DNA from: Mobula hypostoma
Taxonomy: Eukaryota
Assembly (NCBI RefSeq): GCF_963921235.1
Contig: NC_086108.1
Span: 73,162,001-73,226,000 of the forward strand
Direction: 5' to 3'
DNA length: 64,000 nucleotides
The notes below the pieces were generated by a model. That model had not been told where the DNA came from, did no database searches, and saw nothing but the letters and a program-made list of their open reading frames with translations. The position numbers and the translations under genes are program-made. This document shows, in pieces, positions 20,543 through 64,000 of the stretch (the stretch's first letter is position 1; each line of letters opens with the position of its first letter).

Positions 20543-20899
20543 TTGGCATTTTAAGCAAATGGTTGATGGCTACTGGCAGTAATCCAGTGACCAATTACCC
20601 TAAACCCTTTGGTATATACATGAGACATACCATGATAGGAGAGCAAAAACAACTAGAAAGGAGAAAGAACACAGAATAGTATAAAACAGGAACAGTTCCT
20701 TCATCTCACCATGTCTGCACTGACCATGATGGTTGTGTAAATTAATACTATCTACCTGTACATAGTCTGACACCCCTATTCTCTCCCTGCTGATGTGTCC
20801 ATCTAAATGCTTCCTAAACATTTGTTTTTGTGATAGCATTGGCTTTACTGACTGTAAAGTTCCAAACTTAAATGAAGACCTCAAGCCCTATCCAATATA

Positions 20900-21850
20900 A
20901 ATAGCCAATATAAAAGAATCAAGACTTCACCACATTGGGTGTTCAAGCAGTGTGCAAATGACATCAACTGTGCAAACACTAAAAGAAAGAAATAACAATA
21001 ATAAATAAATAGTGAGATGAAGAGTCCTTGAAAGTGAATGGGGCAAGTGAAGTTGAGTGAAGTTCAGCACTTTAGTTCAAGAGCCCAATGGTTGAGGCAT
21101 AGTAACTGATCCTGAACATGGTGGCGTGGAGCTTGAGGCCCCTCTGCATTCTTTCTGATGGTGGCAGTGAGACGGGAGCAGGGACCTGGGTGGTGCGGGT
21201 CACTGATGAGGGATGCTGCTTTCTTGCGACAATGCTTCATGTAGATGTGCTCAATGATGGGGAGGGCTTTACCTGTGGTGGACTAGGCCGCATCTACTAC
21301 ATTTTGCAAGATTTTCCATTCAAGGGCATTGGTGTTTCCATACTAAGCTGTGATACAGCTAGTCAATATACTTTCCACCACACGTCTGTTGGATTTGTCT
21401 AAGTTTTAAACGTCATGCCAAATTTTTGCAAACTTCTAAGGAAGTAGAGGTGCTGCCATGTGTACATACATGCTGGGCCCAGGATAGGTCCTCGAAAATT
21501 ATAACACCGAGGAATTTAAAGTTGCTGACCCTGTCCACCTCTAATCTTCTGATGAGGACTGGTTCATGGACCTCTGGTTTCCTCCTCCTGAAGTCAATAA
21601 TCAGCTCTTTGGGCTTACTGACATCGAGTAAGAATTTGTTACTGTGGCACCACTCAGCCAGATTTTCAATCTCACTTCTATATGCTGATTCATCATCACC
21701 TTTGATTCGGCCTATGATGGGGTGTTGCTGGCAAACTTGAATGTGGCATTGGGGCTCTGCTTAGGCACACAGTCGGAAGAGTAAAGCAAGTAGAGCAGGG
21801 GGCTAACCATGCAGTCTTGTGGTGCACCTGTGCTGATGGAGATTGTAGAG
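20900..21850 (-). mobile_element. Rex1/Babar-like LINE 3' fragment, degenerate
   Basis: Reverse strand carries GAPQ..PLLY, FKFLGV and LYFL motifs plus a 3' UTR also seen at 55170-55348. Confidence 0.7.
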
Positions 21851-25162: not shown

Positions 25163-25558
25163 TTTGAACGGGGCACAACTGCGCAAGTGCGTGAAGGTCG
25201 GCCTGTGAGACAGCGGGAGAGTTTAAAAAGCGAGCAGATTGAGAAGGGGAAGGTAATTTCTTCGCCAGTTTGAACGGGGCACGACTGTGCAAGCGCGTGA
25301 AGGTCGGCCTGTGAGAGAGCGGGAGAGTTTAAAAAGCGAGCAGATTGAGAAGGGGAAGGTAATTTCTTCGTCAGTTTGAACGGGGCACGACTGCGCAAGC
25401 GCGTGAAGGTCGGCCTGTGAGACAGCGGGAGAGTTTAAAAAACGAGCAGATTGAAAAGGGGAAAATCATTTCTTCGGCAGTTTGAACAGAGCATGACCAC
25501 GCAATCGCGTGAAGGTTGGCCTGTGAGACAGTGGGGGAGTTTAAAAAGCGAGCAGATT
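25163..25558 (+). repeat. About 3.7 copies of a 106-bp CpG-rich tandem monomer at the CR1 5' end
   Basis: TTTGAAC unit starts at 25163, 25269, 25375 and 25481. Confidence 0.9.
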
Positions 25559-41965: not shown

Positions 41966-42469
41966 GAAAAAGAGTGTGATACTATCACATTTGCTGACCA
42001 CAAAGTTCTAAATTCAAACATTGACGTTTAATGAACAAAGTTCATTTATTTACAGTGATTCACGTTTAAATCCAAACACTCTTCAAACGCAATTTATAAC
42101 TCACAGAGAATGTCTATTTCAAACATTTCCCATTTACAAACCATTTCTAAAACATGAACCATTTCCAAAACACAGAACTTTCCTAAACATAAAGCACAAA
42201 GCATTTCTTAAACATAAAGGATAAAGGGCAAAAGATTTCCAAAACACAAGTACAATCCCTATAAACTAAAAAGATATACCAACAAGCTGCAGATGAACAA
42301 GTCCTCGTTGCAGAAACCAAAGCAGGAGGGATGGATTTTTGTTCAAGCTGTGTTTCTGTCATGTTTCTTGATGTTCCTTAACCCATTCCTACTAAGCCTG
42401 AACTGCTCTCTACATTTATACCATTTTTTTCCACTCGGGTGACTTCGCAAACATGTGATATTTCCTCAG

Positions 42470-42755
42470 CCCATCCTCTGGGTCACCCCCCCCCCGTCTT
42501 TCTTCCCGGACCTCCTGTCCCATGATCCTCTCGTATCCCCTTTTGCCTATCACCTGTCCAGCTCTCGGCTCTATCCCTCCCCCTCCAGCTTTCAAATCCC
42601 TTACTCACTCTTCCTTCAGTTAGTCCTGACGAAGGGTCTCGGCCTGAAACGTCAACTGCTCCTCTTCCTATAGATGCTGCTTGGCCTGCTGCGTTCACCA
42701 GCAACTTTGATGTGTGTTGCTTGAATTTCCAGCATCTGCAGAATTCCTGTTGTTT
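42470..42755 (+). mobile_element. Penelope terminal fragment
   Basis: 12-bp TSD ATATTTCCTCAG at 42458-42469 and 42756-42767. Near-identical to the terminus at 55623-55910. Confidence 0.88.
42622..42657 (+). ncRNA. Minimal hammerhead ribozyme (one stem I mismatch)
   Basis: AGTC-CTGACGA-AGGgtctcggCCT-GAAAC-GTC-AACT. Confidence 0.65.
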
Positions 42756-42778
42756 ATATTTCCTCAGATATCCTTTAA

Positions 42779-44560
42779 GTAGTCATAGTCATAGTCATAC
42801 TTTATTGATCCCGGGGGAAATTGGTTTTCGTTACAGTTGCACCATAAATAATTAAATAGTAATAAAGCCATAAATAGTTAAATAGTAATATGTAAAATTA
42901 TGCCAGGAAATAAGTCCAGGACCAGCCTATTGGCTCAGGGTGTCTGACCCTCCAAGGGAGGAGATGTAAAGTTTGATGGCCACAGGCAGGAATGACTTCC
43001 TATGACGCTCTGTGTTGCATCTCAGTGGAATGAGTCTCTGGCTGAATGTACTCCTGTGCCCAACCAGTACATAATGTAGTGGATGGGAGACATTGTCCAA
43101 GATGGCATGCAACTTGGACAGCATCCTCTTTTCAGACACCACCGTCAGAGAGTCCAGTTCCATCCCCATAACATCACTGGCCTTACGAATAAGTTTGTTG
43201 ATTCTGTTGGTGTCTGCTACCCTCAGCCTGCTGCCCCAGCACACAACAGCAAACATGATAGCACTGGCCACCACAGACTCGTAGAACATCCTCAGCATCG
43301 TCCGGCAGATGTTAAAGGACCTCAGTCTCCTCAGGAAATAGAGACGGCTCTGACCCTTCTTGTAGACAGCCTCAGTGTTCTTTGACCAATCCAGTTTATT
43401 GTCAATTCGTATCCCCAGGTATGTGTAATCCTCCACCATGTCCACCCTGACCCCCTGGATGGAAACAGTCGTCACTGGTACCTTAGCCCTCCTCAGGTCT
43501 ACCACCAGCTCCTTAGCCTTTTTCACATTAAGCTGTAGATAATTCTGCTCACACCATGTGACAAAGTTTCCTACAGTAGCCCTGTACTCAGCCTCGTCTC
43601 CCTTGCTGATGCATCCAACTAATGCAGAGTCATCCGAAAACTTCTGAAGATGACAAGACTCTGTGCAGTAGTTGAAGTCCGAGGTGTAAATGGTGAAGAG
43701 AAAGGGAGACAAGACAGTCCCCTGTGGAGCCCCAGTGCTGCTGATCACTCTGTCGGACACATAGTGTTGCAATCACACGTACTGTGGTCTGCCAGTCAGG
43801 TAATCAAGAATCCATGATACCAGGAAAGCATCCACCTGCATCGCTGTCTGCTTCTTCCTCAGCAGAGCAGGGCGGATGGTGTTGAACGCACTGGAGAAGT
43901 CAAAAAACATGACCCTCACAGTGCTCGCTGGCTTGTCCAGGTGGGCGTAGACAAGGTTCAGCAGGTAGACGATGGCATCCTCAACTCCTAGTTGGGGCTG
44001 GTAGGCGAACTGGAGGGGATTTAAGTGTGGCCTGACCATAGGCCGGAGCAGCTCCAGAACAAGTCTCTCCAGGGTCTTCATGATGTGGGAGGTCAATGCC
44101 ACCGGTCTGTACTCGTTGAGGCCGCTGGGGTGCAGCGTCTTCAGCACAGGGACGAGGCAGGACGTCTTTCACAGTACAGGAACCCTCCGGAGCCTCAGGA
44201 TCAGGTTGAATACATGGCGAAGTACTCCACATAGCTGAGGGGAACAGGCTTTGAGCACCCTGGTACTGACACCATCCGGTCCTGCAGCCTTGCTTGGGTT
44301 GAGACGTTTCAGCTGTCTTCTCACCTGTTCAGCTGTGAAGCCCACCATGGTAGTTTCGTGTGGGGAAGGGGTATAGTCATGAGAGCAGGGTGGGGGACTG
44401 TGAGGAGGGGTAGGAGGGGAGAGTGGAATATGTGTTGGTTGGGGGCCGACAACAGATGACTCATGTGGGGGATGGACATGGGCCACAATGTCAAATCTGT
44501 TAAAGAACAGGTTAAGTTCGTTGGCCCTGTCCACACTGCCTTCAGCTCCTCTGTTGCTTC
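42779..44560 (-). mobile_element. Rex1/Babar LINE, 5'-truncated
   Basis: ORFs 44169..44534, 43773..44147 (DFSSAFNT), 42927..43772 (GAPQGTVLSP, KFSDD). (CTATGA)n tail at 42779-42800. Confidence 0.92.
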
Positions 44561-45089
44561 TCTAACACGAACAGTCTAAAAGCATCTTTTTGAAACATAG
44601 ACATGTGCTTAATGTTCACAGTTCATAATTATTACTATAAAGCTAACTTCTTTGAGCACCTAAACCTCTCAACTATAAACACATCAGTTATTGATATGCT
44701 AAATGATATTATCATCTATTCAGCAATGTAAGAGTCAGCTGGTCTGTTTGAAAAAATCTATTGTCTTATACTCTAGTCGAGCAAGAAGTTAGGATGCTGT
44801 GAGCTGGCGTCTGCTTCCACACAGACATAGTATCTGCAAAATACACAGCTTGTTTTCAAAGCTGTTCTATAGAGAGTATTTTTTAACTTCAAGCTGATTA
44901 CTGGTTTTCATTTATATTTTAAGAACTAAAGACCGACTTCCTTTTATGACCAGAAACTAACAAACTGTCAGTTGGAAGTTTATCTACAACTATTTTTGAT
45001 CTTACAAATAGCAGCTGCTGTTACTTAGAAAGCAAGTTTAAGCCAGGAACTGTATACCTATGACACCTCCTTCTTGCTCTGAAGATTTC

Positions 45090-48000
45090 AATCCTTGCGT
45101 CCATGCATTGATTACCAGGGACTGAAAGAAGTCACTGTTAAGAACTGTTACCCTCTTCCACTCATGACCTACTACAATGAACCTCAGTTTTCAACAAGCT
45201 TGATCTCTGTAATGCCTATCATCTGGTCTGCATCTGCGAAGGGGTTGAGTGGAAGACGGCCTTCAACACCGCCTCAGGCCATTATGGGTATCTGGTCATT
45301 CCACTCAGTCTCACCAATTTCCCTGCTGTCTTCCGAGCCCAGGTAAGTAATGTGCTCAGGGAAATTCTGAACCAATTTGATTTTGTGTATCTCGACGACA
45401 TTTTAATTTTTTTCCAAGTCCCTTGCTGAACACACAGGTCACATTCACAAAATTCTCCAGCGCCTTCTGGAGAACCAGCTCTTTGTGAAGGCTGAGAAAT
45501 ATGAGTTTCATCACAATACCGTCTCCTTCCTGGGGTACGTAATCTCAGGCAGTTCCATTCAGATGGATCAATAGAAAGTCAGCTCAGTGGTCAAATGGCC
45601 CCAACCCTCGACTCGTTGGGAGTTGCAACACTTCTTGGGCTTTGCTAACTTCTATTGCCGCTTCATCAGAAATTACAGTACACTGGCTGCAACACTCATT
45701 GCTCTTACCTCATCGACTGTCAGATTATCCTGGTCCCCTGCTGCTGAAAAAGCGTTCTCTGACCTGAAGGAACGTTTCACCTCTGCCCCCATTCTGATTC
45801 AACCTGACACCAACCGACAGTTCATTGTGGAAGTAGATGCATCTGACACTGGTGTAGGAGCTGTTCTCTCTCAATGCTCAGCCAAGTATGAGAAGGTACA
45901 CCCCTGCAACACATTCTTCTCTGAAGGAGCGGAGGCATTGGCTGGAGGGCGCAAAGGTGCCATTCTTAGTCTGGACTGATCACTTGAACCTGGAATATAT
46001 CCGTATGGCCAAGCGTCTCAACTCCCATCAAGCTCGTTGGTCCCTGTTTTCCTCAAGATTCAACTTTACTCTGTCCTTCCGCCCCGGTTCCAAGAATGGA
46101 AAACCTGGTGCTCTCTCCCGTAGATTTCCTTCCTCTGAGACCCCTGAGGTACCCGACATCATCCTCCTTGCTCACTGTCTTGTGAGTGCGGCGCAATGGG
46201 ATATTGAATCCATTGTGCAAGCTGCTCAACAAAGTGAGGAAGCCCCTAGTCCAGTGGTCTCCTACCACCAGGCTGCAGACCAGTACTGGATCACGAGGAA
46301 AAGATATGATTTGGTGATATGAACTGACATGAGTCAGCTGCACCTTTTCTCGTTCCCTGTCCCGTCCACTGTTGAACTTGAATGCACACGAGGTCTGCAA
46401 GAATATTGTCAATATTAAACCGGTCCACAGTGCGCAAAAGGTTGGGGACCCCTGCCCTAGTCAATGCCCCACTAACCATATTTATGTTCCCAGCTCTGTC
46501 CACTCACAGGTATTGCAGTGGGGTCATTCTTCCCGGTTATCCTGTCATCCTGGAACCAGGCGTACTCAGACCCTCATCAGTCGGTGGTTCTGGTGGCCCT
46601 CCATGGGAGATGACATCCGCAACTTTGTCTCAGCCTGCTCAGTTTGCGCTCAAGGCGAGAACTCTAACAAGTCACCTGATGGTCTGTTACAAGCCAGGTC
46701 TACCCTCAAGAGACCCTGGTCCCACATTGACCTGGACTTTGTCACTGGTCTTCCCCCATCAGATAGTAACACCACCATCCTCACAGTAGTTGATCGTTTC
46801 TCCAAGTCTGTACACTTCATTCCTTTACCTAAACTTCCCTTGGCCAAAGAAACAGCCAAATTACTAATACTGCATGTTTTTAAGTTACATGGTTTACCTG
46901 TAGATGTTGTGTCAGACAGGGGCTCTCAATTCACATCCAACTTCTGGAGGGCATTCTGTAATCTTCTTGGTGCCTCAGTGAGTCTGTCTTCAGGATTCCA
47001 CCCACAGACCGATGGCCAGACCGAGCGGGCCAACTGACTGCTAGAGACAGTATTGCGGTGTCTAGTCTCCCAGAACCCCTCCGCGTGGAGTCAGCAGCTA
47101 CTCTGGCCCAAGTACTCCATAAACTCTCATCTGTCCTCATCCACTGGTCTGTCCCCCTTCGAGTGCTGCCTTGGCTACCAGCCTCCACTGTTTCCTGCCC
47201 AGGAGGAGGAGGTTGGCGTTCCACCTGCCGAGGCATTCATCCGCCGTTGTCAGCAGATGTGGAGGTGCACTCGCTCCGCCCTTCTTCATGCCCCTGCAAG
47301 GATCAAGAGTCAAGCTGACCACCATAGCTCCAAGGCCTCACGTTACCATCAGGGACAGCGTGTGTGGCTTTCAACCCGAGACCTGCCCCTCAAGGTGGAT
47401 TCCCACAAGCTCGCCCATCACTTCATTGGCCCCTTTCCCATTGCTAAAGTCATCAGCCCTGCTGCCGTCCGTCTCAAGCTCCCCTCCACTCTCTGGCACA
47501 TTCATCCCACTTTCCATGTATCCCGCAAGAAGCCCTTCATGAGCCACCCACTGTGTCCTGTCCTCAAACCACCCCCCGGCTCATCGATGGGTCAGAGGCC
47601 TTCACAGTGCGTTGACTGCTGGATGTTCGTTGCCGTGGCCTCCAGTACCTCATGGACTGGGAGGGCTATGGTCCTGAGGAGAGGTGCTGAGTCCCCACCT
47701 GTAACATGCTGGACCCCTCTCTCCTCAGGGACTTTCATCACCAGCACCCAGCTCTACCTGTCGTGACAGCAGGACGCGTCGTTGGGTGGGGGGTTCAACT
47801 GTCTTTTTGTGTGTTTTCCCCCTAGCTGTCAGTCTGTGGTTTTGTACTGCCATGTGCTCCTGTCCCTGCTCCTGCTCTACTCCGGCCCCTGTATTACTGA
47901 GTACTCCGTCTCTCACCTGTTTCTCATTATTACCTGTATTGCTGCCACCTGTGTCTCATTGTGCTCCACCTATCATCTGCTTCTCTGTTTATTGCTCAGT

Positions 48001-50530: not shown

Positions 50531-51245
50531 CAGTGGGCTTCAATTAATTAGGACACATTGGGACCAGTATATTTTGGCCCAATAAGCGGCTGTCCCAATT
50601 AGCCGAAGTTACATGGAAATAGTTAAAAAGCCATAAAGAGACGAACTACTCTTTAACTGAGTAACAAGTTATTTATATATTTAAATATAATATATAACAA
50701 ATTAAAACATTACCAACATTATTACAGTACCATAAAACTGTGTGGTAGTTCATAGTTATCGACAGAAGAATTTGTCCAGTATATGCTGCTGTATTCTTTT
50801 GATTGACTATAAACAAAATTGGCACAGGCACCTATTGCATTCAATGTATCCTCCAAATCTTCATTTTCATTGTAACACTCAAGATTATTACTGATATCTT
50901 CACATTCTTTGTACTTCCTTTCATTATCACTCCCAGCCATTTCTGGCAATACAAAGTCTGAATGCTTTAAACTGCAGTGAGCAAACAGTTCTGAATTGCC
51001 CTACAGACTATTTCTCACCAACTATCAGTGACAAAAATCACTGTCGAACAGCCAGAGAAATGCATGTGACTGCCACTAGTTAGAAGCTTTTCAGCAGCAG
51101 TCTCCTATCCCAATTAAGTGGCAAAGCACCCCAAATAAATGAAGGGAACCCTAGCTATCTTCTCAATGAGTTCTTGTTCTTCAAGGTTTATCCAAAATAA
51201 GCAGCTATCTCAATTAACAAATGCCCAATAAACCAGAGTTCATTA
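50531..51245. mobile_element. Tigger/pogo-like non-autonomous DNA transposon
   Basis: Degenerate inverted ends (cagtgggcttcaattaattagg / cccaataaaccagagttcatta), TA-rich flanks, acidic transposase-tail-like ORF 50722..50949. Confidence 0.55.
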
Positions 51246-52639
51246 TATATAAAATGCTAAAAAGTAAATATGCAACATCCAAAGGGGTAAGTGAAAAATA
51301 ATATTTGTCAACTCATCTTTCCATGGGATTGTGTTATTACTCCAGTTATTCATGACAGACACATCCCAATGCCCCTCAAGATGAGGCGAGAAGCATGCAA
51401 ACCCATTTGCTTTGTTTGTGATCAGCGCTAGGAAAAGGAGAGGAACAAGAATAACATGATTAAGGCAGACCCTGCCCTTCAGTCTTCCAAGGTTCAGGAT
51501 GAACCAGAGGAATGGTAAGGAGGTGACTATGAGGAAGCGTGTAGCAAAGTAAACATAAGGGAGGTGACCCATAGTAGTGCAGGACAGGTATGGGAGCTCA
51601 CAAAGTGTTCGGAGTAAAGCCACTATATAAAAAGCAGAAGTCACACTTCCATCCTTGTAGTCTTCAACCCTTCAACAAGAAGAACACTACAAAAACAATA
51701 ATTCCAAAGGCCAGGGGAACTGTCTTTGTCTCTTGGAAAACGGCTGCAAAAAAAATTCAGCCCAATTTAAGGTAGTGCTAATACACCCAGAAACTGTATT
51801 TGTTTCTGTAGAAGCTAAATTTGCAACAGCTGGAAAGGTCTTAGCTATTGTTTCGGCTGGAGTGTTAAGCCAGTAAGGACTTAGTATGAGTCTGCAGAAA
51901 AAAAACTGTGAAAGGAGATGTCTCACTCGTCTGATTGTGGCGTTTGAGTTACTCTTCTAATGTAGAGAGAAGTATTCTCTTAATCTGACATTGTTGACAA
52001 ATTTCAAGTCTTTCTATAACATTCTTCATTGCATCCAAAAGCTGGACCTGTGTTTTGCCTTGAGATATGAGTAAATAATCAAATCACTGCAAGAGTCTCT
52101 TCTCTATAAAAAAAAAGTGGGTGATCCTCTGATAGCAGTATGTCTGAACAACTTTAGTCATCAGAACTTTCTACTTTCTGAGTGAACCGAAGGATCACAT
52201 CAGTGGTATTATGCCATTAAGCACTGTCAAGGCATGGCCGTACAGGCAGTTTTACTCTAATTTTTTTTTCAAAAAATCATTAAAAGTGTTAAGGCAAATC
52301 GTTGCTGACTACAACGGACGAAATTTGATGGTGCAGTCACGTGGTCTGTAAACTAGTAATGTACTGGCTTCCCTTTTACTGAAGGTGATGGCTAAGTCAT
52401 GGGACTTGGTGAGTTTGGTGACTTCACCCCATAAATTAATCTCCACAAATTTATCTCCAAGTGGAGAGCCAGGGGTAACCCAAAATGAGAGGAGTCGACC
52501 GGGAGGAATTGAATAGACTCGTGGTGCCATCCGATGCTCACGTGCACAGGCTGTGTGGACATTCTGACCAGCCCAGACCCCAAGCAACATCCATCGATGG
52601 CTGCGAGGCCACTGGGAGGAGCCTGCATGAGCCGGCCTG

Positions 52640-53163
52640 ACACACTGTAGTCAGGGTGAATGTTTACTTTAACAGGAACAATCACATTGCCATAGGCAAG
52701 AATTAAGGGCTCCAGTGTATTACTTCACATATGACCAAGAGGTAAGGGCCATTTAGTGGTACTTAAGTTACAATCATCATTCCTCGTAGATCCCCTCAAA
52801 TTATATTCTCTGAGTCATTAAGCTTCAGAGGTGCCCAAGCCAGATGAGATGCTTTCTGTAGTAAATGTGACTTAGTCTGTGAAAAAGCAAATGGTTAGTA
52901 AGGCAACACTGAATAATATTATTATAAACACAATTATTAAAAGTAAAATACAACAAAAGCAACATTTCTGCCTGGAGTTTGAACCTTCTTATGCTAGAAA
53001 CAGCAATGCATTCTGGATGTATTATCCATGGGTAATATATCAATGAGATATTAAAGTAAACTGGAATTTTTTCCTTGCCTTTTGGATCTAAACAAGTGTA
53101 TCTTTTCAATGCACCTCACCTCCCTTCCCCCATCGAAGTGTAGGAGTTCTGTGGTGGATCCAT
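52640..53163 (-). pseudogene. env: Foamy-type env 5' remnant (leader peptide and start of SU); remainder deleted
   Basis: ATG at 53163 (MDPP) just after the pol stop. Hydrophobic run CCFCCILLLIIVFIIILFSVALLTICFF at 52881-52964, about 65 codons in. Then PLPLGHM*SNTLEPLILAYGNVIVPVKVNI. Confidence 0.6.
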
Positions 53164-53643
53164 GTTCCGTTTAAAATAAGATTCTACTCATTCTGAGGGA
53201 ATAAATCCTGCTGGGGCAGGTTTGATGTTCATTATAGAGAAAGTTTTACACTCAACCTTGTTTCCCTTCCTGGTCTCAATTATCCTTGTCCTCTCATTGA
53301 TAACCTGGGCAATGAGACTGGGAGGTTTCCATCTCCAATGAAAACTAGGGTCAGAATTGTTTTTATGGAACTTCTTTTCTTAGACCCAGTCCCCTTTTTG
53401 TGGTTTCCAAACTGTCTTGTCAGGTTCTTTTGCTTTCTCTTAAATTCCCATAAACTCTCTCAGTTCCTTGAAGAGAGCTGTATTGGGTGTAGGCGATGGT
53501 TGATCTGAGTTAGCGATCAGGGATGTATTTAGCCGGACATTGTACATTAAGAGATAAGGTGTAACATTCTTGTGTACTCCTATTTTCACTTTGTTTACAG
53601 ATAGCTGCATTTCAGGGACAAGTGTAAATTACTTGCCTCTAGA

Positions 53644-53973
53644 GTAGCAACACACATAAAAATTGCTGGTGAACGCAGCAGGCCAGGCAGCATCTCTAGG
53701 AAGAGGTACAGTCAACGTTTTGGGCCAAGACTCTTCGTCAGGACTAACTGAAAGAAGAGATAATAAGAGATTTGAAAATGGGAGGGGGAGGGGGAGATCC
53801 GAAATGATAGGAGAAGACAGGAGGGAGAAGGGGTGGAGCCAAGAGCTGGAAAGTTGATTGGCAAAAGGGATATGAGAGGATCATGGGACGGGAGGCCTAG
53901 GGAGAAAGAAAGGGGGAGGGGGGAAGCCCAGAGGATGGGCAAGGAGTATAGTGAGAGGGACAGAGGGAGAAAA

Positions 53974-54057
<84 letters not shown>

Positions 54058-54332
54058 CGGATGGGGTACGAAGGGGAGGTGGGGCATTAGTGGAAGTTAG
54101 AGAAGTCAATGTTCATGCTATCAGGTTGGAGGCTATCCAGACAGAAAATAAGGTGTTGTTCCTCCAACCTGAGTGTGGCTTCATCTTGACAGTAGAGGAG
54201 GCCATGGATAGACATATCAGAATGGGAATGGGATGTGGACCTCTTCCTATAGATGCTGCCAGGCCTGCTGCATTCACCAGCAATTTTTATGTGTGTTGCT
54301 TGAAATTCCAGCATCTGCAGATTTCCTTGTGT
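53644..54332 (-). mobile_element. Penelope fragment with inverted end inserted in the viral integrase
   Basis: 11-bp TSD TTGCCTCTAGA at 53633-53643 and 54333-54343. (GA)n and (AAAT)n expansions at 53977-54057. Confidence 0.9.
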
Positions 54333-54856
54333 TTGCCTCTAGATTAGACTGTTTTTGCCAGGCCTCCTTAATCCCTGGATTCCTTTACTCAACATGCCAC
54401 CTGATTGGGCTGGAATGGAGTGCTGTACTCTACTCGTTTACCTGTTTGTTCACGTGTGGCTTGAATGCCTTTACCACTGAAGGAAGACCCTTAGCTGGCA
54501 CATATGCAGGCAGGAGTGCCAGCACATAGGAGGTATTATTTGCTTCTTGTCTTTTTTTAGGGAGGCATACCCAAACCTTACTTTCACCATCAGCTTCATA
54601 TTTGTACTGTGTTGGAAATCCTTCGGAACTGGGTTTAGTGGTATCAAGGAGAATTCTTACAGCATAATCCTGTTTAATTTTTTTAGTGTTACTTAGTTAC
54701 TACGAAAACCCTGACCTCCCTTACTGTAGTAAGGTCCATCCCAACAGCTTGTTCCACTTTTTGTTACCTTGTTTATTACCACAGCTGTGAAAGAGGGTTG
54801 CAGTATGTCTCAGAATGTGTAACACCTGTAACAATGATCTAGTCAATCATAATTCA

Positions 54857-55348
54857 TAAAGTTCAAAGTAAATTTATTATCAAAGTAAATATAAAGTGCT
54901 GACATTCATTTTCGTGTGGGCATATGCATGGTAGTGTGGTGGTTAGCACAATGCTGTACACAGGTGACCTGGGTTCAATTCCTGTCACTGCCTTTAAGGA
55001 GCTTGTATGTTCTCTCCGTGACCACATGAATTTCCTCTGGATACTCCAGTTACCTCCCAGAGTCCAAAGACATACCGGTTGGGAGGCTAATTGGTCCTGC
55101 GATTAGGCTGGGAGTAAATCGGAGGATCGCTGAGCGAGGGCTGGATGAGCCTATTCCGCACTGAATCTCAATATAAAGAGATAACAAAAGACTGCCCAAC
55201 TTGGATGTTCAACCAGAGTACAGAAGTCAACAAACTATGTAAATACAAAAAGAAATAAATAAAACTAATAAGTAAATAAGCAGTAAATATCGAGAACATG
55301 AGACAAAGAGTCCTTGAAAGGGAGTCCATTGGTTGTGGGAACAGTTCC
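54857..55348. mobile_element. LINE 3' UTR fragment (minus) containing a V-type tRNA SINE (plus, about 54925-55170)
   Basis: aaagttcaaagtaaatttatt tail, A/B-box-like TGGTAGTGTGG and GGTTCAATTCC, and a UTR shared with 20900-21060. Confidence 0.65.
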
Positions 55349-55684
55349 CATATGTAGTTATGGTAGCTCCCCATTCATTTGTTGGTAATTTACTGTCATT
55401 TTTCAAAGTCACAAACTCTGGATAATAACTGGTTTGTCCCTTTGTAGTTGCCTTACTGCAATAAGTGTATAGACATCCTTCTAAGGCAGTACCTTTCTGT
55501 TCTGTTGGGGTGAAATTATATGAGGGATAGTGTATGGGGGCTTGTGTTTCCTCTCCCTCATTATAGCAGCACCGCAGTGGTTTTTGCTGAAATGCTAATT
55601 TACAGAACAAGAGATTTTCTTACAACACACATCAAAGTTGCTGGTGAACGCAGCAGGCCAAGCAGCATCTATAGGAAGAGGCGC

Positions 55685-55720
55685 AGTCGACGTTTCAGGC
55701 CGAGACCCTTCGTCAGGACT
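55685..55720 (-). ncRNA. Minimal type I hammerhead ribozyme, intact
   Basis: Minus strand AGTC-CTGACGA-AGGgtctcggCCT-GAAAC-GTC-GACT. Confidence 0.75.
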
Positions 55721-56014
55721 AACTGAAGGAAGAGTGAGTAAGGGATTTGAAAGCTGGAGGGGGAGGGGGAGATGCAAAATGATAGGAGAAGACAGGAGGG
55801 GGAGGGATAGAGCCGAGAGCTGGACAGGTGATAGGCAAAAGGGGATACGAGAGGATCATGGGACAGGAGGTCCGGGAAGAAAGACAGGGGGGGGGGTGAC
55901 CCAGAGGATGGGCAAGAGGTATATTCAGAGGGACAGAGGGAGAAAAAGGAGAGTGAGAGAAAGAATGTGTGCATAAAAATGAGTAACAGATGGGGTACGA
56001 GGGGGAGGTGGGGC

Positions 56015-58165
56015 CTAGCGGAAGTTAGAGAAGTCAATGTTCATGCCATCAGGTTGGAGGCTACCCAGACGGAATATAAGGTGTTGTTCCTCCAACCTGA
56101 GTGTGGCTTCATCTTTACAGTAGAGGAGGCCGTGGATAGACATGTCAGAATGGGAATGGGATGTGGAATTAAAATGTGTGGCCACTGGGAGATCCTGCTT
56201 TCTCTGGCGGACAGAGCGTAGATGTTCAGCAAAGCGGTCTCCCAGTCTGCGTCGGGTCTCACCAATATATAAAAGGCCACATCGGGAGCACCGGACGCAG
56301 TATATCACCCCAGTCGACTCACAGGTGAAGTGATGCCTCACCTGGAAGGACTGTTTGGGGCCCTGAATGGTGGTAAGGGAGGAAGTGTAAGGGCATGTGT
56401 AGCACTTGTTCCGCTTACACGGATAAGTGCCAGGAGGGAGATCAGTGGGGAGGGATGGGAGGGACGAATGGACAAGGGAGTTGTGTAGGGAGCGATCCCT
56501 GCGGAATGCAGAGAGAGGGGGGGAGGGAAAGATGTGCTTAGTGGTGGGATCCCGTTGGAGGTGGCACTTAGTGGTGGGATTCCGTTGGAGGTGGCGGAAG
56601 TTACGGAGAATAATATGTTGGACCCGGAGGCTGGTGGGGTGGTAGGTGAGGACCAGGGGAACCCTATTCCTAGTGGGGTGGTGGGAGGATGGAGTGAGAG
56701 CAGATGTACGTGAAATGGGGGAGATGCGTTTAAGAGCAGAGTTGATAGTGGAGGAAGGGAAGCCCCTTTCTTTAAAAAATGAAGACATCTCCCTCGTCCT
56801 AGAATGAAAAGCCTCATCCTGAGAGCAGATGCGGCGGAGACGGAGGAATTGCGAGAAGGGGATGGCGTTTTTGCAAGAGACAGGGTGAGAAGAGGAATAG
56901 TCCAGATAGCTGTGAGAGTCAGCAGGCTTATAGTAGACATCAGTGGATAAGCTGTCTCCAGAGACAGAGACAGAAAGATCTAGAAAGGGGAGGGAGGTGT
57001 CGGAAATGGACCAGGTAAACTTGAGGGCAGGGTGAAAGTTGGAGGCAAAGTTAATAAAGTCAACGAGTTCTGCATGCGTGCAGGAAGCAGCGCCAATGCA
57101 GTCGTCGATGTAGCGAAGGAAAAGTGGGGGACAGATACCAGAATAGGCACGGAACATAGATTGTTCCACAAACCCAACAAAAAGGCAGGCATAGCTAGGA
57201 CCCATACGGGTGCCCATAGCTACACCTTTAGTTTGGAGGAAATGGGAGGAGCAAAAGGAGAAATTATTAAGAGTAAGGACTAATTCCGCTAGACGGAGCA
57301 GAGTGGTGGTAGAGGGGAACTGATTAGGTCTGGAATCCAAAAAGAAGCGTAGAGCTTTGAGACCTTCCTGATGGGGGATGGAAGTATATAAGGACTGGAC
57401 ATCCATGGTGAAAATAAAGCGGTGGGGGCCAGGGAACTTAAAATCATCGAAAAGTTTAAGAGCGTGAGAAGTGTCACGAACATAGGTTGGAAGGGATTGA
57501 ACAAGGGGTGATAAAACAGTGTCGAGGTATGCAGAAACGAGTTCGGTGGGGCAGGAGCAAGCTGAGACGATAGGTCGGCCAGGACAGGCAGGTTTGTGGA
57601 TCTTGGGTAGGAGGTAGAAACGGGAAGTGCGGGGTGTGGGAACTATAAGGTTGGTAGCAGTGGATGGGAGATCCCCTGAGCGGATAAAGTCAGTGATAGT
57701 GTGGGAGACAATGGCCTGGTGCTCCTTAGTGGGGTCACGATCGAGGGGTAAATAAGAGGAGGTATCCGCGAGTTGTCGCTGTGCCTCGGCAAGGTAGAGG
57801 TCAGTACGCCAGACTACAACAGCACCCCCCTTATCGGCGGGTTTAATAATAAGGTTAGGATTAGTCCGGAGGGAGTGGAGAGCAGAGCGTTCCGAAGGAG
57901 TGAGGTTGGAATGGGGACAAGGTGCGGTGAAGTCGAGACGGTTGATGTCCCGTCGGCAGTTGGCAATAAAGAGATCCAGAGCAGGCAGAAGACCAGTGCG
58001 GGGTGTCCATGAAGAAGAGGAGGGTCGAAGACGGGAGAAGGGGTCATCGGTGGGGGTGGAAGAGTCCTTGCCGAAGAAGTAGGCTCGGAGACGGAGACGG
58101 CGGAAGAAAAGTTCCGCATCGTGGCGAACACGGAACTCGCTGAGGTGTGGGCGAAGGGGGACAAA
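56015..58165 (-). CDS. Penelope RT plus GIY-YIG endonuclease frame, 5'-truncated
   Basis: ORF 56015..57406 (DVQSLYT, GVAMG, RYIDD, GVIY..LYIGET). The same phase continues upstream (IKPADKGG, FYLLPKIHK, GRPIVS) to the truncation at about 58165. Confidence 0.88.
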   Translation of the reverse strand, partial: FVPLRPHLSEFRVRHDAELFFRRLRLRAYFFGKDSSTPTDDPFSRLRPSSSSWTPRTGLLPALDLFIANCRRDINRLDFTAPCPHSNLTPSERSALHSLRTNPNLIIKPADKGGAVVVWRTDLYLAEAQRQLADTSSYLPLDRDPTKEHQAIVSHTITDFIRSGDLPSTATNLIVPTPRTSRFYLLPKIHKPACPGRPIVSACSCPTELVSAYLDTVLSPLVQSLPTYVRDTSHALKLFDDFKFPGPHRFIFTMDVQSLYTSIPHQEGLKALRFFLDSRPNQFPSTTTLLRLAELVLTLNNFSFCSSHFLQTKGVAMGTRMGPSYACLFVGFVEQSMFRAYSGICPPLFLRYIDDCIGAASCTHAELVDFINFASNFHPALKFTWSISDTSLPFLDLSVSVSGDSLSTDVYYKPADSHSYLDYSSSHPVSCKNAIPFSQFLRLRRICSQDEAFHSRTREMSSFFKERGFPSSTINSALKRISPISRTSALTPSSHHPTRNRVPLVLTYHPTSLRVQHIILRNFRHLQRNPTTKCHLQRDPTTKHIFPSPPLSAFRRDRSLHNSLVHSSLPSLPTDLPPGTYPCKRNKCYTCPYTSSLTTIQGPKQSFQVRHHFTCESTGVIYCVRCSRCGLLYIGETRRRLGDRFAEHLRSVRQRKQDLPVATHFNSTSHSHSDMSIHGLLYCKDEATLRLEEQHLIFRLGSLQPDGMNIDFSNFR

Positions 58166-58958
58166 CGTCGATTTTCTTAGGTCACTTGTCTAAAGGTCTT
58201 TTGCTTGCTAAACTGCAATTATCAATTTCTCTAGTGCCTCATAATCTCCTGGGGTTAAAACAAATGGCTTTACATTTTTTTGGTGTACAACTGTCATATA
58301 ATGGTTTTAACAATTGAACATAGCCAGGTATGAAAGCTCTAGCATAATTCAATAGGTCTCGTGTAGATGGTAAGGCTTTTATTGTCTTTAGATATCCTAT
58401 TCAAGTGACTTTTTGTCTAAATTCAGGAGTTAAAAAACATCCCTGATTTGTAATTGTCATACTTAGAAAATTTACTTTTATACGGCAGAACTGATTTTTT
58501 TTTTCTGTTAATTACATAGTTCTTGTCTGTCACTTTCAAGAAATTTATACTTTTATGAGTGAAATCCTTGCAACATTTATTGTAATAGCTGTGGCTGTAT
58601 TGAAATAGCAGGGTCAACTTTTGCCAAAAATGCGAGCTTAGGCATATGTATGCCAGTATCTTATTCATCATAAGTACAATTTTGATTAGAGTTGTTGCTA
58701 AAAATTCTCCTGTGCAGTTTTTGCTACATTAACCTTAACCCCCTCCTTATTTGCATTTTGTTATCCTGAACTGCAGGTGAGGGGGTGGATATTTGGGAGG
58801 TGACTTGTCCTGTTATATATTTGGAAGACGAACGGTGAGTCAGGCCTTGTGGTGTGTGCCCAGTTTAACAGTATACTCTTCTCTATAATATAGATGGAGC
58901 CTCTGAATTTTCCCTCTGTCTCTTCCACACAGAAAGTGGGAGGAGCTTAAGGTCAAAG

Positions 58959-59914
58959 TTCAAAGTACATTTATATACAACCTTAAGATTCACTTCCTTA
59001 CAGGCAGCCACAAAAAACAATGAAAGCCAATAGAACCCATTAAGAAAACAAGACCGTCAAACACCCAATGTGCAGAAAAAGGAACAAATCATGCAAACAG
59101 TAAAAATAAGCAAATAATATTCAGAACTGGAGCTCACGAGTGAGTCCACAGCCACGAAACCAGTCATCATTGCAGCCGATCCAGGAGCATGTTAATTGCA
59201 GGCCACAGTCTCAATTCAGCACAGGGACAAGTAAATTTTGCAGAGCAGTGAGCTGAATTCTGGCCCGTCCCTCTCTTCCAGACCCGACTCCCTGACTTTT
59301 TTAATCCAGCCCGGTGGTTAAATTGGCCAAACCTTAGGTTCTTCCTCCCCCTCGGGCCCTTTCAGGCCTGGGTACCGCTGCCTCAATTAAGCTCATACCT
59401 GACCATTCCAATCTGGCCCAGTGCTTAAACAGGCTAAACAGCAGTCCTTGCTCTCGGAGCTGAGCCCTGCTGCTTTGATACACTATTAGATCTAGGCCCT
59501 GCCGATGATGCAGCCTATACCCAAGGTTTCCAGTCTGGCCCAGTGCTTAAATCACCCAAACAGTGGGTAGTTCCTCACTCTTGTCTGGGCTCATCTCACC
59601 TCAGTTCTACTGCTTTGAATCCCCTTCAAGTCCACTCCAGCAATGGCCAAATATTGGCTCATTCCTGCTCTCGGACCCTGGCCCCACCACCTCAGTTTGG
59701 CCTGTACGCACTATGCAGCAACCATTCTGCACCTTCAAGGCTTCAGTTCACATTCAAAAATGCCAGGTCAAACAGGCAGGTTCAAAGCTCAATTACAGAA
59801 GGGAAGTTATAGGCTAGTGATTTCAGTGATTGTGTATGAGAAAAAGTGTGATTTTTAAAATAGTTAATAGTTTTGGTTGCAGCCAGCAAGTCACTGCTGT
59901 GCTTCACCTTTAAC
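58959..59914 (-). mobile_element. Non-autonomous LINE-tailed retroelement inserted in gag
   Basis: (CTTTGAA)n-type tail at the left end. Possible TSD CAAAG at 58954-58958 and 59915-59919. Confidence 0.55.
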
Positions 59915-61772
59915 CAAAGCCTATACTATAGGCCGTGGCCTATACCTAGTGTCTAGCCGTCTACTGTAGGTTGTGGGTGAATATATCTTCCTAAGGGCAG
60001 GCAGTCTCCTGGGAACTTGCTTTGTTTGTTGATTACATCTTCTCTGTTGAGAGGCTGATGTAGGGGAACACTGTGAATGCGGTCGACCTGAGGAACAAGG
60101 TTAGTTTGATAACTTTGTTACTGAGCCAATATACCCTTTAGAGGGAAAAGCAGAGAACTCTATTCCAGCAGCTTGTTGTCCTTGTGTGGGAATGAGTGGT
60201 AATCCAGCTACCGCCATGTGGGTGCACAGGAACCTGAAATCGTTCATGTATTGGGTGTTGATTAAGGGCCATTCCACACATGGTGCAGAGGTTTCCACTA
60301 GGTTAAAGGGGTAGCATCATAGAATGAACCAGGTCCCAGTTTGCTCATACCATCTGTTCTCTGAGCTTATAAACTGCTATTAAGCCCTGGCTTTTGACTA
60401 TTTTACTCAACACAGTGCTAAGTTCTCCTCATATAGTACATCTCCACTATTAATTTGTTTATAAACCCATGCATGTGGATTTTCACACTCATGTAGAGGT
60501 GGTACCATGGCTATGGGAATTATCATTAATAAGAATTGATGAGCAATGACATTACTATGAATTGCTGAAAATGTTGGGAGTATGATTGGTCCAGTATCTC
60601 CCAGTTTTCTGAAGTAGCCTCTTCAGAATTCTTTCAGCATTAGCATGTTTCCTAAAGTTGTCATAGCCAGAGGCGGTTGTGGGGATAAGCTCCCACTACC
60701 TGTAAAGTGCTCCAAATGGCATGCATCACTAACAGCCTCTGACAGCCAAGTCCAACTCTTGGCCTTCACGTGTGACTTAGCTACTAAGCCCGGTGGAACT
60801 GTTTCTACTGACAAGAGAAGGGGCAAAGGTGAACCACTGGCGCCTCAAAACCAGTTGCTTCGGGCAGGTGGGGCTCGTCAGCCTTGGACGGCAGCCCCCC
60901 TAGGGAAGGAAAACTCTGATTTTAAACCTCCGCTGCCTTGCGTCCATACCGACCCATGGGAAAGGCTTCAGGAACAAACCCCGAGGAAGAAATCCAGAAC
61001 CGGAGTACCTAAGGTAGTTTCAAAGGTTTCAAAGGTTTCAAAGGTACATTTCATGTTATAATAACAGAGAAATGTATACAATATGCACCCTGAAATTCTT
61101 TTTTTCCAACCTCCACAAAAACAGAGGAGTGCCCCAAAGGATGAATGACAGTTAAATGTAAGAACCCCAAAGATCCCCACCAGTTCCTCCTTCCCACACA
61201 AAAGCAGCAGCAAAGCAGCGATCCCCCCTCCTCCACCAACAAAAAAGCATCGGTGCCCTTCACTGAGCACTCAAGCATGCAGCAAAGCATCAATAAAGAC
61301 ACAGACTTGCAGTACCCCAAAGGCTACTCGTTCACCTGGTAATTCGACATATCACAGGCTCGCTCTCTCCCTAATAAGGGAGAAAGGGGTGTCCCGTTTC
61401 ACAGCGAGAGGGGAGACATAACAAACAACTAACTGATTTATGATGTTAAAAGTCTGTTGTGTTGCTTTTTTCGATCTCTGTGCCAAAGAACTCGGGTGTC
61501 TGGGCGCACAGCCAGCAGCCAGCTTGCTGCTTTCGATCTTCCGTCTCCCACGACACACCAATTTCCTGAGGCGGCACCAACCTCGAGTCTGCCCGCCTCC
61601 AGAGCCCTGAACCCTGAAGGCACACTAGTCTTTTAGGCCACGTCTTTGTTATATCAAATAGTGGCCGGTCGTGAGACCCCAAGTGTGGGTCCTATTCCCA
61701 CAAAGAACTGAAGCCAGCATGTAACCCAGGTCAGGGTCTTCAAAAGAACGCTGAAAGGGAAAAATAGGGATA

Positions 61773-63322
61773 CAGCTTTCCCCCGCCATCTGAAGGTAGA
61801 GCGTTCCTATGAAACGGTTCGTAAGCCGAAATGTCATAAATCGAAGAAGCAATTACCATTTATTTATATGGGAAAATTTTGTGAGCGTTTGCAGACCCAA
61901 AAATAACCTACTAAATCATGCCAAATAACACATAAAACCTAAAATAACAGTAACATATAGTAAAAGCAGGAATGATATGATAAATACACAGCTTATATAA
62001 AGTAGAAATACTTTTCCCAATCATTACTGAACTGTTCTCCATAGCGAAAATCTCACACAAGCGCAGTCGGCAGAAAATCTCACGCAAGCGCTGTTGGCAA
62101 GAACACTCTCTGTAGTAACCCTTAAGCTATGAAGCTGGCAAATCATACCAAATAACACGTAAAAATACACAGCCTATATAAAGTAGAAATAATGTATGTA
62201 CAGTGTAGTATCACGTACCGGAATCGGGAAGACAGCTTGCCGAGCACACTGATGATGATGTGTTAGACTGAGTCGTCGCAGGCTGGGATGGTGCAGTGGC
62301 CCCCATCCTCCAGGTGGCTGAGTGATACATTACCACGAAGAACGCAGGGGTCCAGCGGTAGCCGGGAGGTACACAGCACATCTTTAAGAAAAAAGCCGAA
62401 ACAAACATGCTAATTAATTAGGTGCCGCCCGTAATTGTCGGCCCAGATCAGTGCTGATTTCCGATTGCGTCGTCTCTGATCTGGGCCGACAATTACGTGT
62501 GGGCGGCACCTAATTAATTAGCATGTTTATTTCGGCTTTTTTCTTAAAGATGTGCTGTGTGCCTCCCGGCTACCTTTGCATTCTCCATGAATCGGTATCT
62601 GTCCGTGGCCTGGGGGTTGGGGTGGTGGGACACTGGGGTGTCATCTCGTCGTCTGTTTCCATTAGAGCAGGCAGCTCATCTTCTATCTCTGCCCACCTCG
62701 ATGTCGAAGGTCAAGGTTTGTCGTCTGCTGTGGCTGATGTGAAAGGCTTGCTTGACTGCTGAGCCTCGCGCATTTTTCTATCACACAGTTCTTTAATAAG
62801 GACTGAAACCATCCTGCAAATATCCCCTAAACCAACGTACCCTTTCAAAACTAGAGTCATACTTTATCATTACTCATTCAGTTTCGATTGTTATCCTTTT
62901 TTCTTCCAATTGCTTCAGCTCTTCATCTGTCAGTTCTTGGTGATGGGATGCCAAAACCTCTTCAACATCATGTTCGTTAGCTTCCCCAAGCCAAACTCAC
63001 TTTGTCCTACTTCGTTCACCACGATCAAAATGCTTAATGATGTCTAGTTTTACCGTAAGTGTAACAGCCTTACGAGCTCTTTCAGGCTTTTCCGATACCA
63101 TAGAACTCATCTTGCAAACGGCTGCTCACAGGCTCGTGTTAAAGCAATGCCGTTCTGAATCCGGGGGAGAGCGGCTGCTCGGGACGCGCTGCCTTTTATC
63201 GCGCGCTGAATTTTTTTTCGTAAGTGAAAACACCTTCTGAAAGCGAAAACAGGATACTAACATAGGTCTTTCGTAACAGTGAGGTTTCGTAAAGCGAACA
63301 TTCGAAAAGCGGGTGACACCTG
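61773..63322 (-). mobile_element. Internally deleted Tigger/pogo DNA transposon
   Basis: TA flanks, imperfect TIRs CAGCTTTCCCCCGC / GCGGGTGACACCTG. From ATG at 63110, RARKAVTLTVKLDIIKHFDRGE (psq-type HTH) joins directly to the C-terminal DVEEVLASHHQELTDEELKQL. Confidence 0.85.
62357..62574. repeat. Long near-perfect inverted repeat (about 95-99 bp arms, 24-nt loop)
   Basis: Arms 62357-62451 and 62476-62574 differ by two substitutions and one 4-nt indel. Confidence 0.95.
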
Positions 63323-64000
63323 TATTAAAGATAGAAATAGAGCTATTTCCGAATATACAAGCAAAGGAGTTGCCGTTAGGTCATACAGCAGGGTTTGGTC
63401 CTTCTAATCTGCATCCTACTCTGAGTTCATTTCCTTCATCGTTGTAGTCTCTGACTTGAAGAATAAAATATTCATTGTGTTCGATGTGAGGAGCAGTCAG
63501 GTATTATCCCATATTTCTGATATGGGTTAATATCAGAAGCACATTCATCAAATCGACCAGAAGTTGCCTGCTCAACTGCTGGAGACCAGGATGACGACTA
63601 TTTTACAGTACGAGGTGAGGTGATGTAGCACTTGTCAAGAGCTCTCTGAGCTGGACTATTGCCAGAACATAATTCTTTCGAAAATAATACTTCTGGTATG
63701 ATGTGACAATGTTGTGCACCAACTGTGATGGTATTGGGTTTGCTGACTGCAAAGTTATAAATTCAAATGAAGACTTTAAGCTCTATCCAATATAACTAGC
63801 CACGAGTACTCTCAGTGAAGGGAAATTTTACTGTTACAACCCAATCTTCAAAGACTAGTTTACTTCCCTGTTTATTCTCCAAGGTGAGTTTAGCTGCCAA
63901 TACCCACTATTTGAGTGGTGGGTCCCCCCTTTCAGGGATAAGATACTTCCAGCTCACAAAGCAGTTTAATGCACATCTATGCATATCTTTACAGTGATGC

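What the first reader, a model, noticed from the sequence alone, without database searches (positions are those of the whole stretch)
51246..64000. Hidden endogenous foamy-virus-like provirus (gag-pol-env-accessory) in a probable cartilaginous fish genome
Seen: the non-TE islands from about 52.3 kb to 64 kb join on the minus strand into one retroviral genome. Removing the TSD-bounded Penelope insertions restores reading frames, for example DL*TSDLRK|SLVL*ISIS across 58170/55622. Knowledge (recalled PFV sequence): RT LLNYARAFIPGYVQLLKPLYD vs LLNFARNFIPNFAELVQPLYN; integrase extension EGFPTQYKY..KVWV..IIPP vs KGYPKQYTY..KVKV..IIPP; CTD WKPQKGDWVxE..RWKPPS..VINERT..SIMNIKP vs WSPVVGQLVQE..RWHKPS..VLNPRT..SIDNLKP; plus a spuma-type capsid and a long Env leader. 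Inference: an old germline foamy-like virus. Such elements have been reported from only a few cartilaginous fishes, so this may be an undescribed lineage; novelty cannot be shown from the window alone.
Basis: partly seen in the sequence, partly recalled or inferred. Interest (0 to 1): 0.92.

Follow-up and report, generated by a model that had tools for sequence, protein, structure and literature searches.

The report
Defective ancient foamy retrovirus in ray
This is the broken remnant of a very old foamy-type retrovirus in a ray genome, one of many scattered copies, and it belongs to a sub-group that lost the core of its copying enzyme yet still multiplied, most likely by borrowing that enzyme from complete relatives.

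Summary
Confirmed as a decayed foamy-like endogenous retrovirus on the minus strand. The RT and integrase pieces hit foamy proteins first and group with them in trees (100/100, 100/99); gag and a sister copy's env hit spumavirus-specific Pfam models; a tRNA-Lys-type primer site follows the 5' LTR. The provirus is larger than first described: its 3' LTR lies at 42.0-45.1 kb and its 5' LTR runs past 64 kb. It is not a lone relic: the genome holds about 230-260 pol candidates and about 3,700 LTR candidates, paired LTRs differ by about 20%, and the same locus is present in four other organisms tested. That points to a non-autonomous subfamily spread by complementation in trans, keeping env. The host is a cartilaginous fish, probably a myliobatiform ray. 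Foamy-like ERVs of cartilaginous fish are already published; identity with the 2023 cartilaginous-fish foamy virus could not be tested.

The parts
63724..64000 (-). 3' part of the 5' LTR (ends in CA at 63724); the LTR continues beyond the window to about G000:C50:73228500 with two insertions
   Evidence: 3,671 first-look candidates for 63340-64000 against 228-258 for pol pieces
63704..63721 (-). primer-binding site, tRNA-Lys(CTT) type, decayed
   Evidence: 11 of 18 letters match the host tRNA-Lys 3' end here, up to 14 of 18 in another copy; 11 loci examined
63378..63703 (-). 5' leader
   Evidence: follows the primer site in other copies
60645..63377 (.). later insertions, including a pogo/Tigger-like DNA element at about 61771-63324
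   Evidence: absent at this place from the 10 other copies; weak CENP-B_N hit E 0.031
59930..60644 (-). gag remnant with spumavirus central (capsid) domain
   Evidence: PF20672 E 4e-4, 20.4 bits, under the 30-bit cut-off; E 1.7e-3 in copy L019; no PDB hit
58921..59929 (.). later insertion between gag and pol
   Evidence: matched by 0 of 10 other copies
58170..58920 (-). pol remnant A: start of pol, RT motif-A region and RT thumb; carries the two family-shared deletions (near 58595 and 58532)
55623..58169 (-). Penelope retroelement with a 724-codon RT + GIY-YIG frame and a 10-nt target-site duplication
55342..55622 (-). pol remnant B: RT connection domain
   Evidence: feline foamy Pol 471-535, 30 bits; adjacent to remnant A in copies without the Penelope
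54861..55341 (.). later insertion standing where other copies have about 0.5 kb of RNase H
54332..54860 (-). pol remnant C: end of RNase H and parts of integrase, with a copy-specific loss near 54530
53647..54332 (-). truncated Penelope copy with an 11-nt target-site duplication
53200..53646 (-). integrase core end and foamy-type C-terminal SH3 domain
   Evidence: PFV integrase 244-375, E 1e-6; PF18103 E 2e-4, 21.7 bits, under the 25-bit cut-off
52650..53199 (-). env 5' part (leader-peptide region, start of surface subunit)
   Evidence: collinear with copy L034, whose env hits PF03408 above cut-off; no Pfam hit in the window's own frames
52294..52649 (.). unrelated insert standing where other copies have about 0.9 kb of env
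   Evidence: matched by 0 of 10 other copies; no Pfam hit; looks like a Gypsy protease piece by eye only
51650..52293 (-). env 3' part (transmembrane-subunit region, by position)
   Evidence: no profile hit
51243..51671 (-). 142-codon open, hydrophobic frame after env; candidate accessory gene shared by the family
   Evidence: no Pfam hit, no ESM Atlas hit at 0.9 or above
45083..47766 (+). Gypsy (Ty3) element inserted just ahead of the purine tract
   Evidence: RVT_1, RT_RNaseH_2, Integrase_H2C2, rve, SH3_Tf2-1
45067..45082 (-). polypurine tract ahead of the 3' LTR
   Evidence: same position as in other copies' 3' LTRs
42026..45066 (-). 3' LTR, split by a 2.1-kb insertion at 42469-44563; its last 0.3 kb not found next to it
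   Evidence: 17-19% different from the 5' LTR over 909 aligned nt

Best explanation
A dead provirus of a complex, foamy-type retrovirus that invaded the germline of a ray ancestor in one burst, tens of millions of years ago or more. Two forms spread together: a complete form and a deleted form that had lost about 0.6 kb (most of the protease and the RT N-terminus) and about 0.2 kb (the RT palm with the YxDD motif) but kept LTRs, primer site, gag, the 3' half of pol, env and the accessory region. The window copy is of the deleted form. It could not reverse-transcribe itself, so its RNA was most likely packaged and copied with Pol made by complete copies (complementation in trans). SHOWN: identity, anatomy, two classes, shared junctions, equal age, fixation across species. 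INFERRED: trans-complementation; that the retained leader/gag and 3' pol kept the packaging signals, as CAS-I and CAS-II do in mammalian foamy viruses. After insertion the copy decayed neutrally and was cut up by Penelope, Gypsy, LINE and DNA elements; no present function is evident.
For: Foamy affinity: searches (PDB: foamy E 3e-32 against 9e-8 for the next protein; top hits: an unnamed foamy-like protein and feline foamy Pol; a foamy or foamy-like protein is the best hit for 8 of 8 family pieces), trees, Env and Gag profiles. Deletions: feline Pol 243-263 abuts about 341 in 6 of 10 copies where both pieces were detected; the palm junction reads the same in 13 of 13 deleted-type loci printed, the protease junction in 10 of 11; copies L041 and L042 keep both segments. 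Class sizes: 95 first-look candidates for a segment only complete copies have against 228-258 for retained pol pieces. One burst: star tree, 0 of 16 inner branches supported, end branches 0.10-0.18; distances deleted-deleted 0.227, deleted-complete 0.238. Mechanism background: passages of PMC7828637 and PMC8922424.
Against: The deleted copies were picked by similarity to the window, so 13 of 13 is not a random sample; class sizes rest on first-look candidate counts from queries of different length. The deleted class is not recovered as a clade (3 changes; one clade not rejected, p-AU 0.205). The nearest relative found, P0001, has Gag and Pol in one frame, so separate Pol expression may not hold in this lineage. 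No central purine tract was found in 8 of 8 copies scanned. The window's own env and the A9 protease gave no profile hit. No ERV-L or published fish foamy-like sequence was in my trees.
Confidence: 0.8

Rival explanations
1. The deleted form spread mainly as a defective virus co-packaged in infectious particles during repeated infection by an exogenous helper virus, not by copying inside germ cells.
For: Env is kept in the deleted form (PF03408 hit in deleted-type copy L033/L034); both forms have the same age.
Against: A star tree with no supported inner branch shows little viral divergence between insertions, which fits a short burst from few templates. The route cannot be told from decayed copies with these tools.
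Confidence: 0.3
2. One deleted provirus was multiplied by host segmental duplication, so no complementation is needed.
For: Identical deletion junctions.
Against: Copies lie on many contigs; the LTR outer flanks printed differ between copies; copies differ from each other about as much as each LTR pair does.
Confidence: 0.03
3. The element is a Gypsy, epsilon- or loki-type element, or ERV-L, that only resembles foamy viruses.
For: Sequences are heavily decayed; Gag and integrase-tail profile scores are under the curated cut-offs; ERV-L was not in the reference set.
Against: RT scores 115-130 bits to foamy proteins against at most 78 to any other reference; foamy clade support 100/100 and 100/99 against Gypsy-type, epsilon-type and frog/coelacanth proteins; foamy Env profile above cut-off.
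Confidence: 0.04

Closest known systems
Spumaretrovirinae (prototype/simian, feline foamy virus)
   Same: Gene order, RT and integrase affinity (about 37-44% and 23-30% identity), spuma Gag and Env profiles, Lys primer site, long LTR, accessory region
   Different: Separate branch outside the mammalian clade; no Tas/Bet similarity; no central purine tract found; endogenous, dead, hundreds of copies; a large share lacks the protease/RT core
Cartilaginous-fish endogenous foamy virus (Wang, Chen, Cui 2023, J Virol 97:e01816-22)
   Same: Host group and virus group, by its title; that it covers sharks and rays is my recall
   Different: Could not be compared: text and sequences not held. This family may be one of its lineages
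Fish and amphibian foamy-like ERVs (CmiFLERV, ERV-Spuma.0-Sca, AciFLERV, NviFLERV, CoeEFV)
   Same: Foamy-like ERVs of aquatic vertebrates with Lys or Asn primer sites and accessory frames; a salamander protein (P0011) falls in the same integrase clade
P0001, unnamed 1,687-aa foamy-like protein from an 11-kb Logan contig
   Same: Top hit; sister to this family in RT (97/89) and integrase (88/90) trees
   Different: Intact, with Gag and Pol in one frame; only 31-37% identical; host unknown
Non-autonomous ERVs spread by complementation in trans
   Same: Shared deletions of essential enzymes, high copy number, complete relatives in the same genome (mechanism defined in PMC8922424)
   Different: Here in a foamy-type virus, and env is kept while the RT core is lost; env loss is the pattern usually tied to high copy number (reference title and passage)

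Membership tests
Spumaretrovirinae / foamy-like ERV | RT and integrase group with foamy viruses | tested here: met
   100/100; 100/99; ERV-L and published fish sequences absent from the set
Spumaretrovirinae / foamy-like ERV | Foamy-type Env | tested here: met
   PF03408 33.9 bits (cut-off 27), E 1e-8, in copy L034, partly collinear with window 52650-52830; no hit in the window's own frames or copy L031/L032; genome-wide search blank and uninformative
Spumaretrovirinae / foamy-like ERV | Spuma-type Gag central domain | tested here: inconclusive
   PF20672 E 4e-4 (window) and 1.7e-3 (L019), both under cut-off; none in L031, L036
Spumaretrovirinae / foamy-like ERV | Gag without Cys-His boxes | tested here: inconclusive
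   pattern absent in 7 of 7 gag stretches, but they are decayed and some partial
Spumaretrovirinae / foamy-like ERV | Foamy-type integrase C-terminal domain | tested here: met
   PFV integrase the only PDB hit; PF18103 just under cut-off
Spumaretrovirinae / foamy-like ERV | tRNA-Lys primer-binding site (most foamy viruses) | tested here: met
   10-14 of 18 letters in 10 of 11 loci, 7 of 18 in one, against the host tRNA-Lys(CTT)
Spumaretrovirinae / foamy-like ERV | Accessory genes (tas, bet) between env and 3' LTR | tested here: inconclusive
   a shared region of about 1.9 kb is present in the family; no Pfam hit in the frames scanned; internal promoter not tested
Spumaretrovirinae / foamy-like ERV | A9-type protease | tested here: inconclusive
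   PF03539 genome search blank and uninformative; mostly deleted in the window copy
Spumaretrovirinae / foamy-like ERV | Central polypurine tract in 3' pol | tested here: inconclusive
   no match above shuffles in 8 of 8 decayed copies
Spumaretrovirinae / foamy-like ERV | Pol made from its own spliced mRNA, not as Gag-Pol | not testable with these tools
   copies too decayed; the sister protein P0001 is a Gag-Pol fusion
Cartilaginous-fish endogenous foamy virus (2023) | Sequence identity or clustering with the published elements | not testable with these tools
   paper not held
Non-autonomous ERV subfamily | Many dispersed copies share one deletion of an essential enzyme | tested here: met
Non-autonomous ERV subfamily | Complete relatives of the same family and age in the genome | tested here: met
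Gypsy/Ty3, epsilon-type or frog/coelacanth retrovirus-like group | RT and integrase group with these | tested here: not met

The most novel reading that the evidence does not exclude
An undescribed batoid foamy-virus lineage, sister to an unnamed Gag-Pol-fused foamy-like virus, that reached a copy number far above the endogenous foamy viruses in the papers I read, and whose larger share is a natural vector-like derivative: it lost only the protease/RT core and kept exactly the regions that carry packaging and Pol-capture signals in modern foamy viruses. That would date RNA-bridged Pol capture to an ancient marine lineage and give thousands of orthologous insertion markers for ray phylogeny.
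Probability: 0.25. Interest if true: 0.72.

Novelty: new variant of a known kind. Interest (0 to 1): 0.5.

Why it matters
Foamy viruses are the model for the deep history of retroviruses and are said to become endogenous rarely (abstract of PMC10581153). A family with hundreds of proviruses and thousands of LTRs, fixed across several ray species, gives a datable calibration point from the earliest-branching jawed vertebrates. A protease/RT-deleted, env-keeping subfamily that spread alongside complete copies bears on how foamy genomes recruit Pol in trans. The window copy itself is dead and has no evident function.

Tried and rejected
Genome-wide profile searches for foamy Env and A9 protease: blank, with controls blank too, so uninformative. 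Word-based protein search with a pol frame of copy L019: nothing. PDB search with the gag frame: nothing. ESM Atlas for the 142-codon frame: best score 0.84, a lead only. Central purine tract: not found. Proviral target-site duplication: inconclusive; both ends were read for 2 copies (2 of 4 and 0 of 4 letters alike), and the lone LTR end at 20828-20907 does not share a flank with the window's 5' LTR, so I do not count it as this provirus's end. Monophyly of the deleted class: neither shown nor rejected. No RNA holder listed. No earlier scan notes. Papers not held: Wang 2023, Chen 2021. Absolute dating rejected as unreliable: K of 0.20 gives about 45, 200 or 450 million years under the three rates quoted. 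L014 was dropped from counts as the same locus as L033.
Full report
Setting. The window is G000:C50:73162001-73226000 of a 3.48-Gb assembly in 200 contigs. The Penelope element inside the finding has its closest named relatives in rays (92% to a Mobula protein, 76-79% to Hypanus proteins, 67-70% to shark proteins), so the host is a cartilaginous fish, most likely a myliobatiform ray (inference).

The observation. Read in single frames with X at stops, the RT piece at 58.3-58.5 kb hits foamy Pol structures at E 4e-11 to 2e-9 and the next protein at E 0.022. The piece at 53.2-53.6 kb hits only prototype foamy virus integrase. Of 22 frames scanned against Pfam, the gag island hit the spumavirus Gag central domain (E 4e-4) and the integrase tail hit SH3_11 (E 2e-4), both under the curated cut-offs. 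Two Penelope insertions have exact target-site duplications of 10 and 11 nt, and the viral pieces on either side are adjacent in copies that lack them.

Anatomy. Comparison with 10 other genomic copies marks out the element. The 5' LTR ends at 63724 and is followed after two letters by a primer site matching the host tRNA-Lys(CTT) (11 of 18 here, up to 14 of 18 elsewhere). Then come leader, gag, pol, env and a 142-codon hydrophobic frame at 51243-51671. The 5' LTR continues about 2.5 kb past the window, interrupted by two insertions. The window copy has also lost, on its own, about 0.5 kb of RNase H, part of integrase, about 0.9 kb of env and about 1.5 kb of the accessory region, and its pieces carry many stops. 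It is dead.

Family and age. First-look candidates number 258 and 228 for two pol pieces and 3,671 for a piece that includes LTR; only 40 were scored each time, at 68-83% identity, so these are rough counts. The LTR excess suggests mostly solo LTRs (inference). Paired LTRs differ by K2P 0.20-0.22 in the window copy and 0.19-0.27 in 5 other proviruses. Contigs from 4 of 4 other organisms laid cross junctions specific to this locus at about 91-98% identity (records 2, 10, 17, 19, 20, 28), so the insertion is fixed and older than their split. Absolute age depends on the rate: about 45 to 200 million years for 2.2e-9 and 0.5e-9 per site per year (rates); CpG decay inflates these.

What virus. A search of 1.84 billion proteins with a pol frame of copy L019 returned an unnamed foamy-like protein (P0001, E 5e-30) and feline foamy virus Pol (E 4e-28) first. 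Among 163 reference proteins, a foamy or foamy-like protein was the best hit for 8 of 8 family pieces. In an RT tree of 44 rows the 4 family rows, P0001 and 4 foamy Pols form a clade at 100/100, with the family sister to P0001 at 97/89. In an integrase tree of 30 rows the same group plus a salamander protein and one unlabelled protein has 100/99. The window's rows fill under half of the columns in both trees. The env of copy L034 matches the foamy Env model above its cut-off. ERV-L and the published fish elements were not in the reference set.

The unexpected part. Mapping feline Pol on the copies showed residues 243-263 next to about 341 in 6 of 10 copies where both were detected: the RT palm with the catalytic YxDD motif is missing. 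Searching the genome with the feline RT found family members that keep it. Against two of these, all 12 other loci in hand lack the same segment of about 0.2 kb and also a segment of about 0.6 kb covering most of the protease and the RT N-terminus. The palm junction reads alike in 13 of 13 loci including the window, the protease junction in 10 of 11 printed. These loci were found with window pieces, so the sample leans to the deleted type. A segment that only complete copies hold gave 95 candidates against 237 for a query that also spans retained pol, suggesting very roughly 40% complete and 60% deleted. The two complete-type copies I read are themselves broken by stops and frameshifts. A DNA tree of 13 deleted and 6 complete copies is a star with no supported branch, and distances within and between classes are alike.

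How it most likely worked. An element without protease and RT core cannot copy itself, so identical deletions in many dispersed proviruses with their own LTR pairs mean the deleted RNA was copied by enzymes from complete copies. This is complementation in trans as defined in PMC8922424 (passages). In mammalian foamy viruses Pol is made from its own mRNA and is captured through the genomic RNA, using CAS-I in the leader/gag start and CAS-II (PMC7828637, passages; that CAS-II lies in 3' pol is my recall). The deleted form keeps those regions, which would make it a natural vector-like genome. That link is inference: no central purine tract was found, the nearest relative has a fused Gag-Pol, and trans-complementation needs no foamy-specific trick. 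Spread through infectious particles, helped by the retained env, is the main rival.

What is known. Foamy-like ERVs are described from elephant shark (PMC5512871, passages; PMC4422223, passages) and catshark (PMC10699275, parts 1-2 of 4). Wang, Chen and Cui 2023 name a cartilaginous-fish endogenous foamy virus; I saw only the title in reference lists. Other papers were seen as passages only: PMC5210030, PMC12642411, PMC6955096, PMC12690878, bioRxiv 2021.11.23.469661 (52), bioRxiv 2026.10.27.761883 (66, no mention of foamy elements). Seven searches listed no paper on a ray foamy family with a pol-deleted subfamily, but the library lacks most subscription journals and I read no supplements; those of the 2023 paper may well list this lineage.

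Verdict. Real, foamy-like, old and dead; a new variant of a known kind. The copy number and the shared protease/RT deletion lift it above a routine fossil: interest 0.5.

Noticed in passing
P0001 (Logan, 10,956-nt contig): Unnamed intact foamy-like protein with Gag and Pol in one 1,687-aa frame, unlike mammalian foamy viruses; sister to this family in both trees. Host unknown.
   Followed up: partly
window 20828-20907, minus strand: A further LTR 3' end of the same family with no primer site behind it; flank does not match the provirus's 5' flank.
   Followed up: partly
window 55623-58169: Young Penelope element with a 724-codon open RT + GIY-YIG frame; 93-95% similar partial copies at 4655-5538 and elsewhere.
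   Followed up: partly
window 45083-47766, plus strand: Decayed Gypsy element with RT, RNase H, integrase and SH3 domains, inserted right at the provirus's purine tract.
   Followed up: partly
window 61771-63324: Pogo/Tigger-like DNA element with a weak CENP-B hit and an internal inverted repeat of 74-nt arms at 62357-62574; also present in copy L035.
   Followed up: partly
window 51243-51671, minus strand: The candidate accessory frame is still open for 142 codons here although neighbouring viral frames are full of stops; it is broken in other copies, so probably chance.
   Followed up: partly
window 25163-25558: Tandem array, 106-nt unit, 3.7 copies, 92% matches.
   Followed up: no
L023 and L028, 3' LTR ends: In 2 of 4 other 3' LTR ends printed, the flank begins with the same five letters that resemble the start of the primer site; unexplained.
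   Followed up: no
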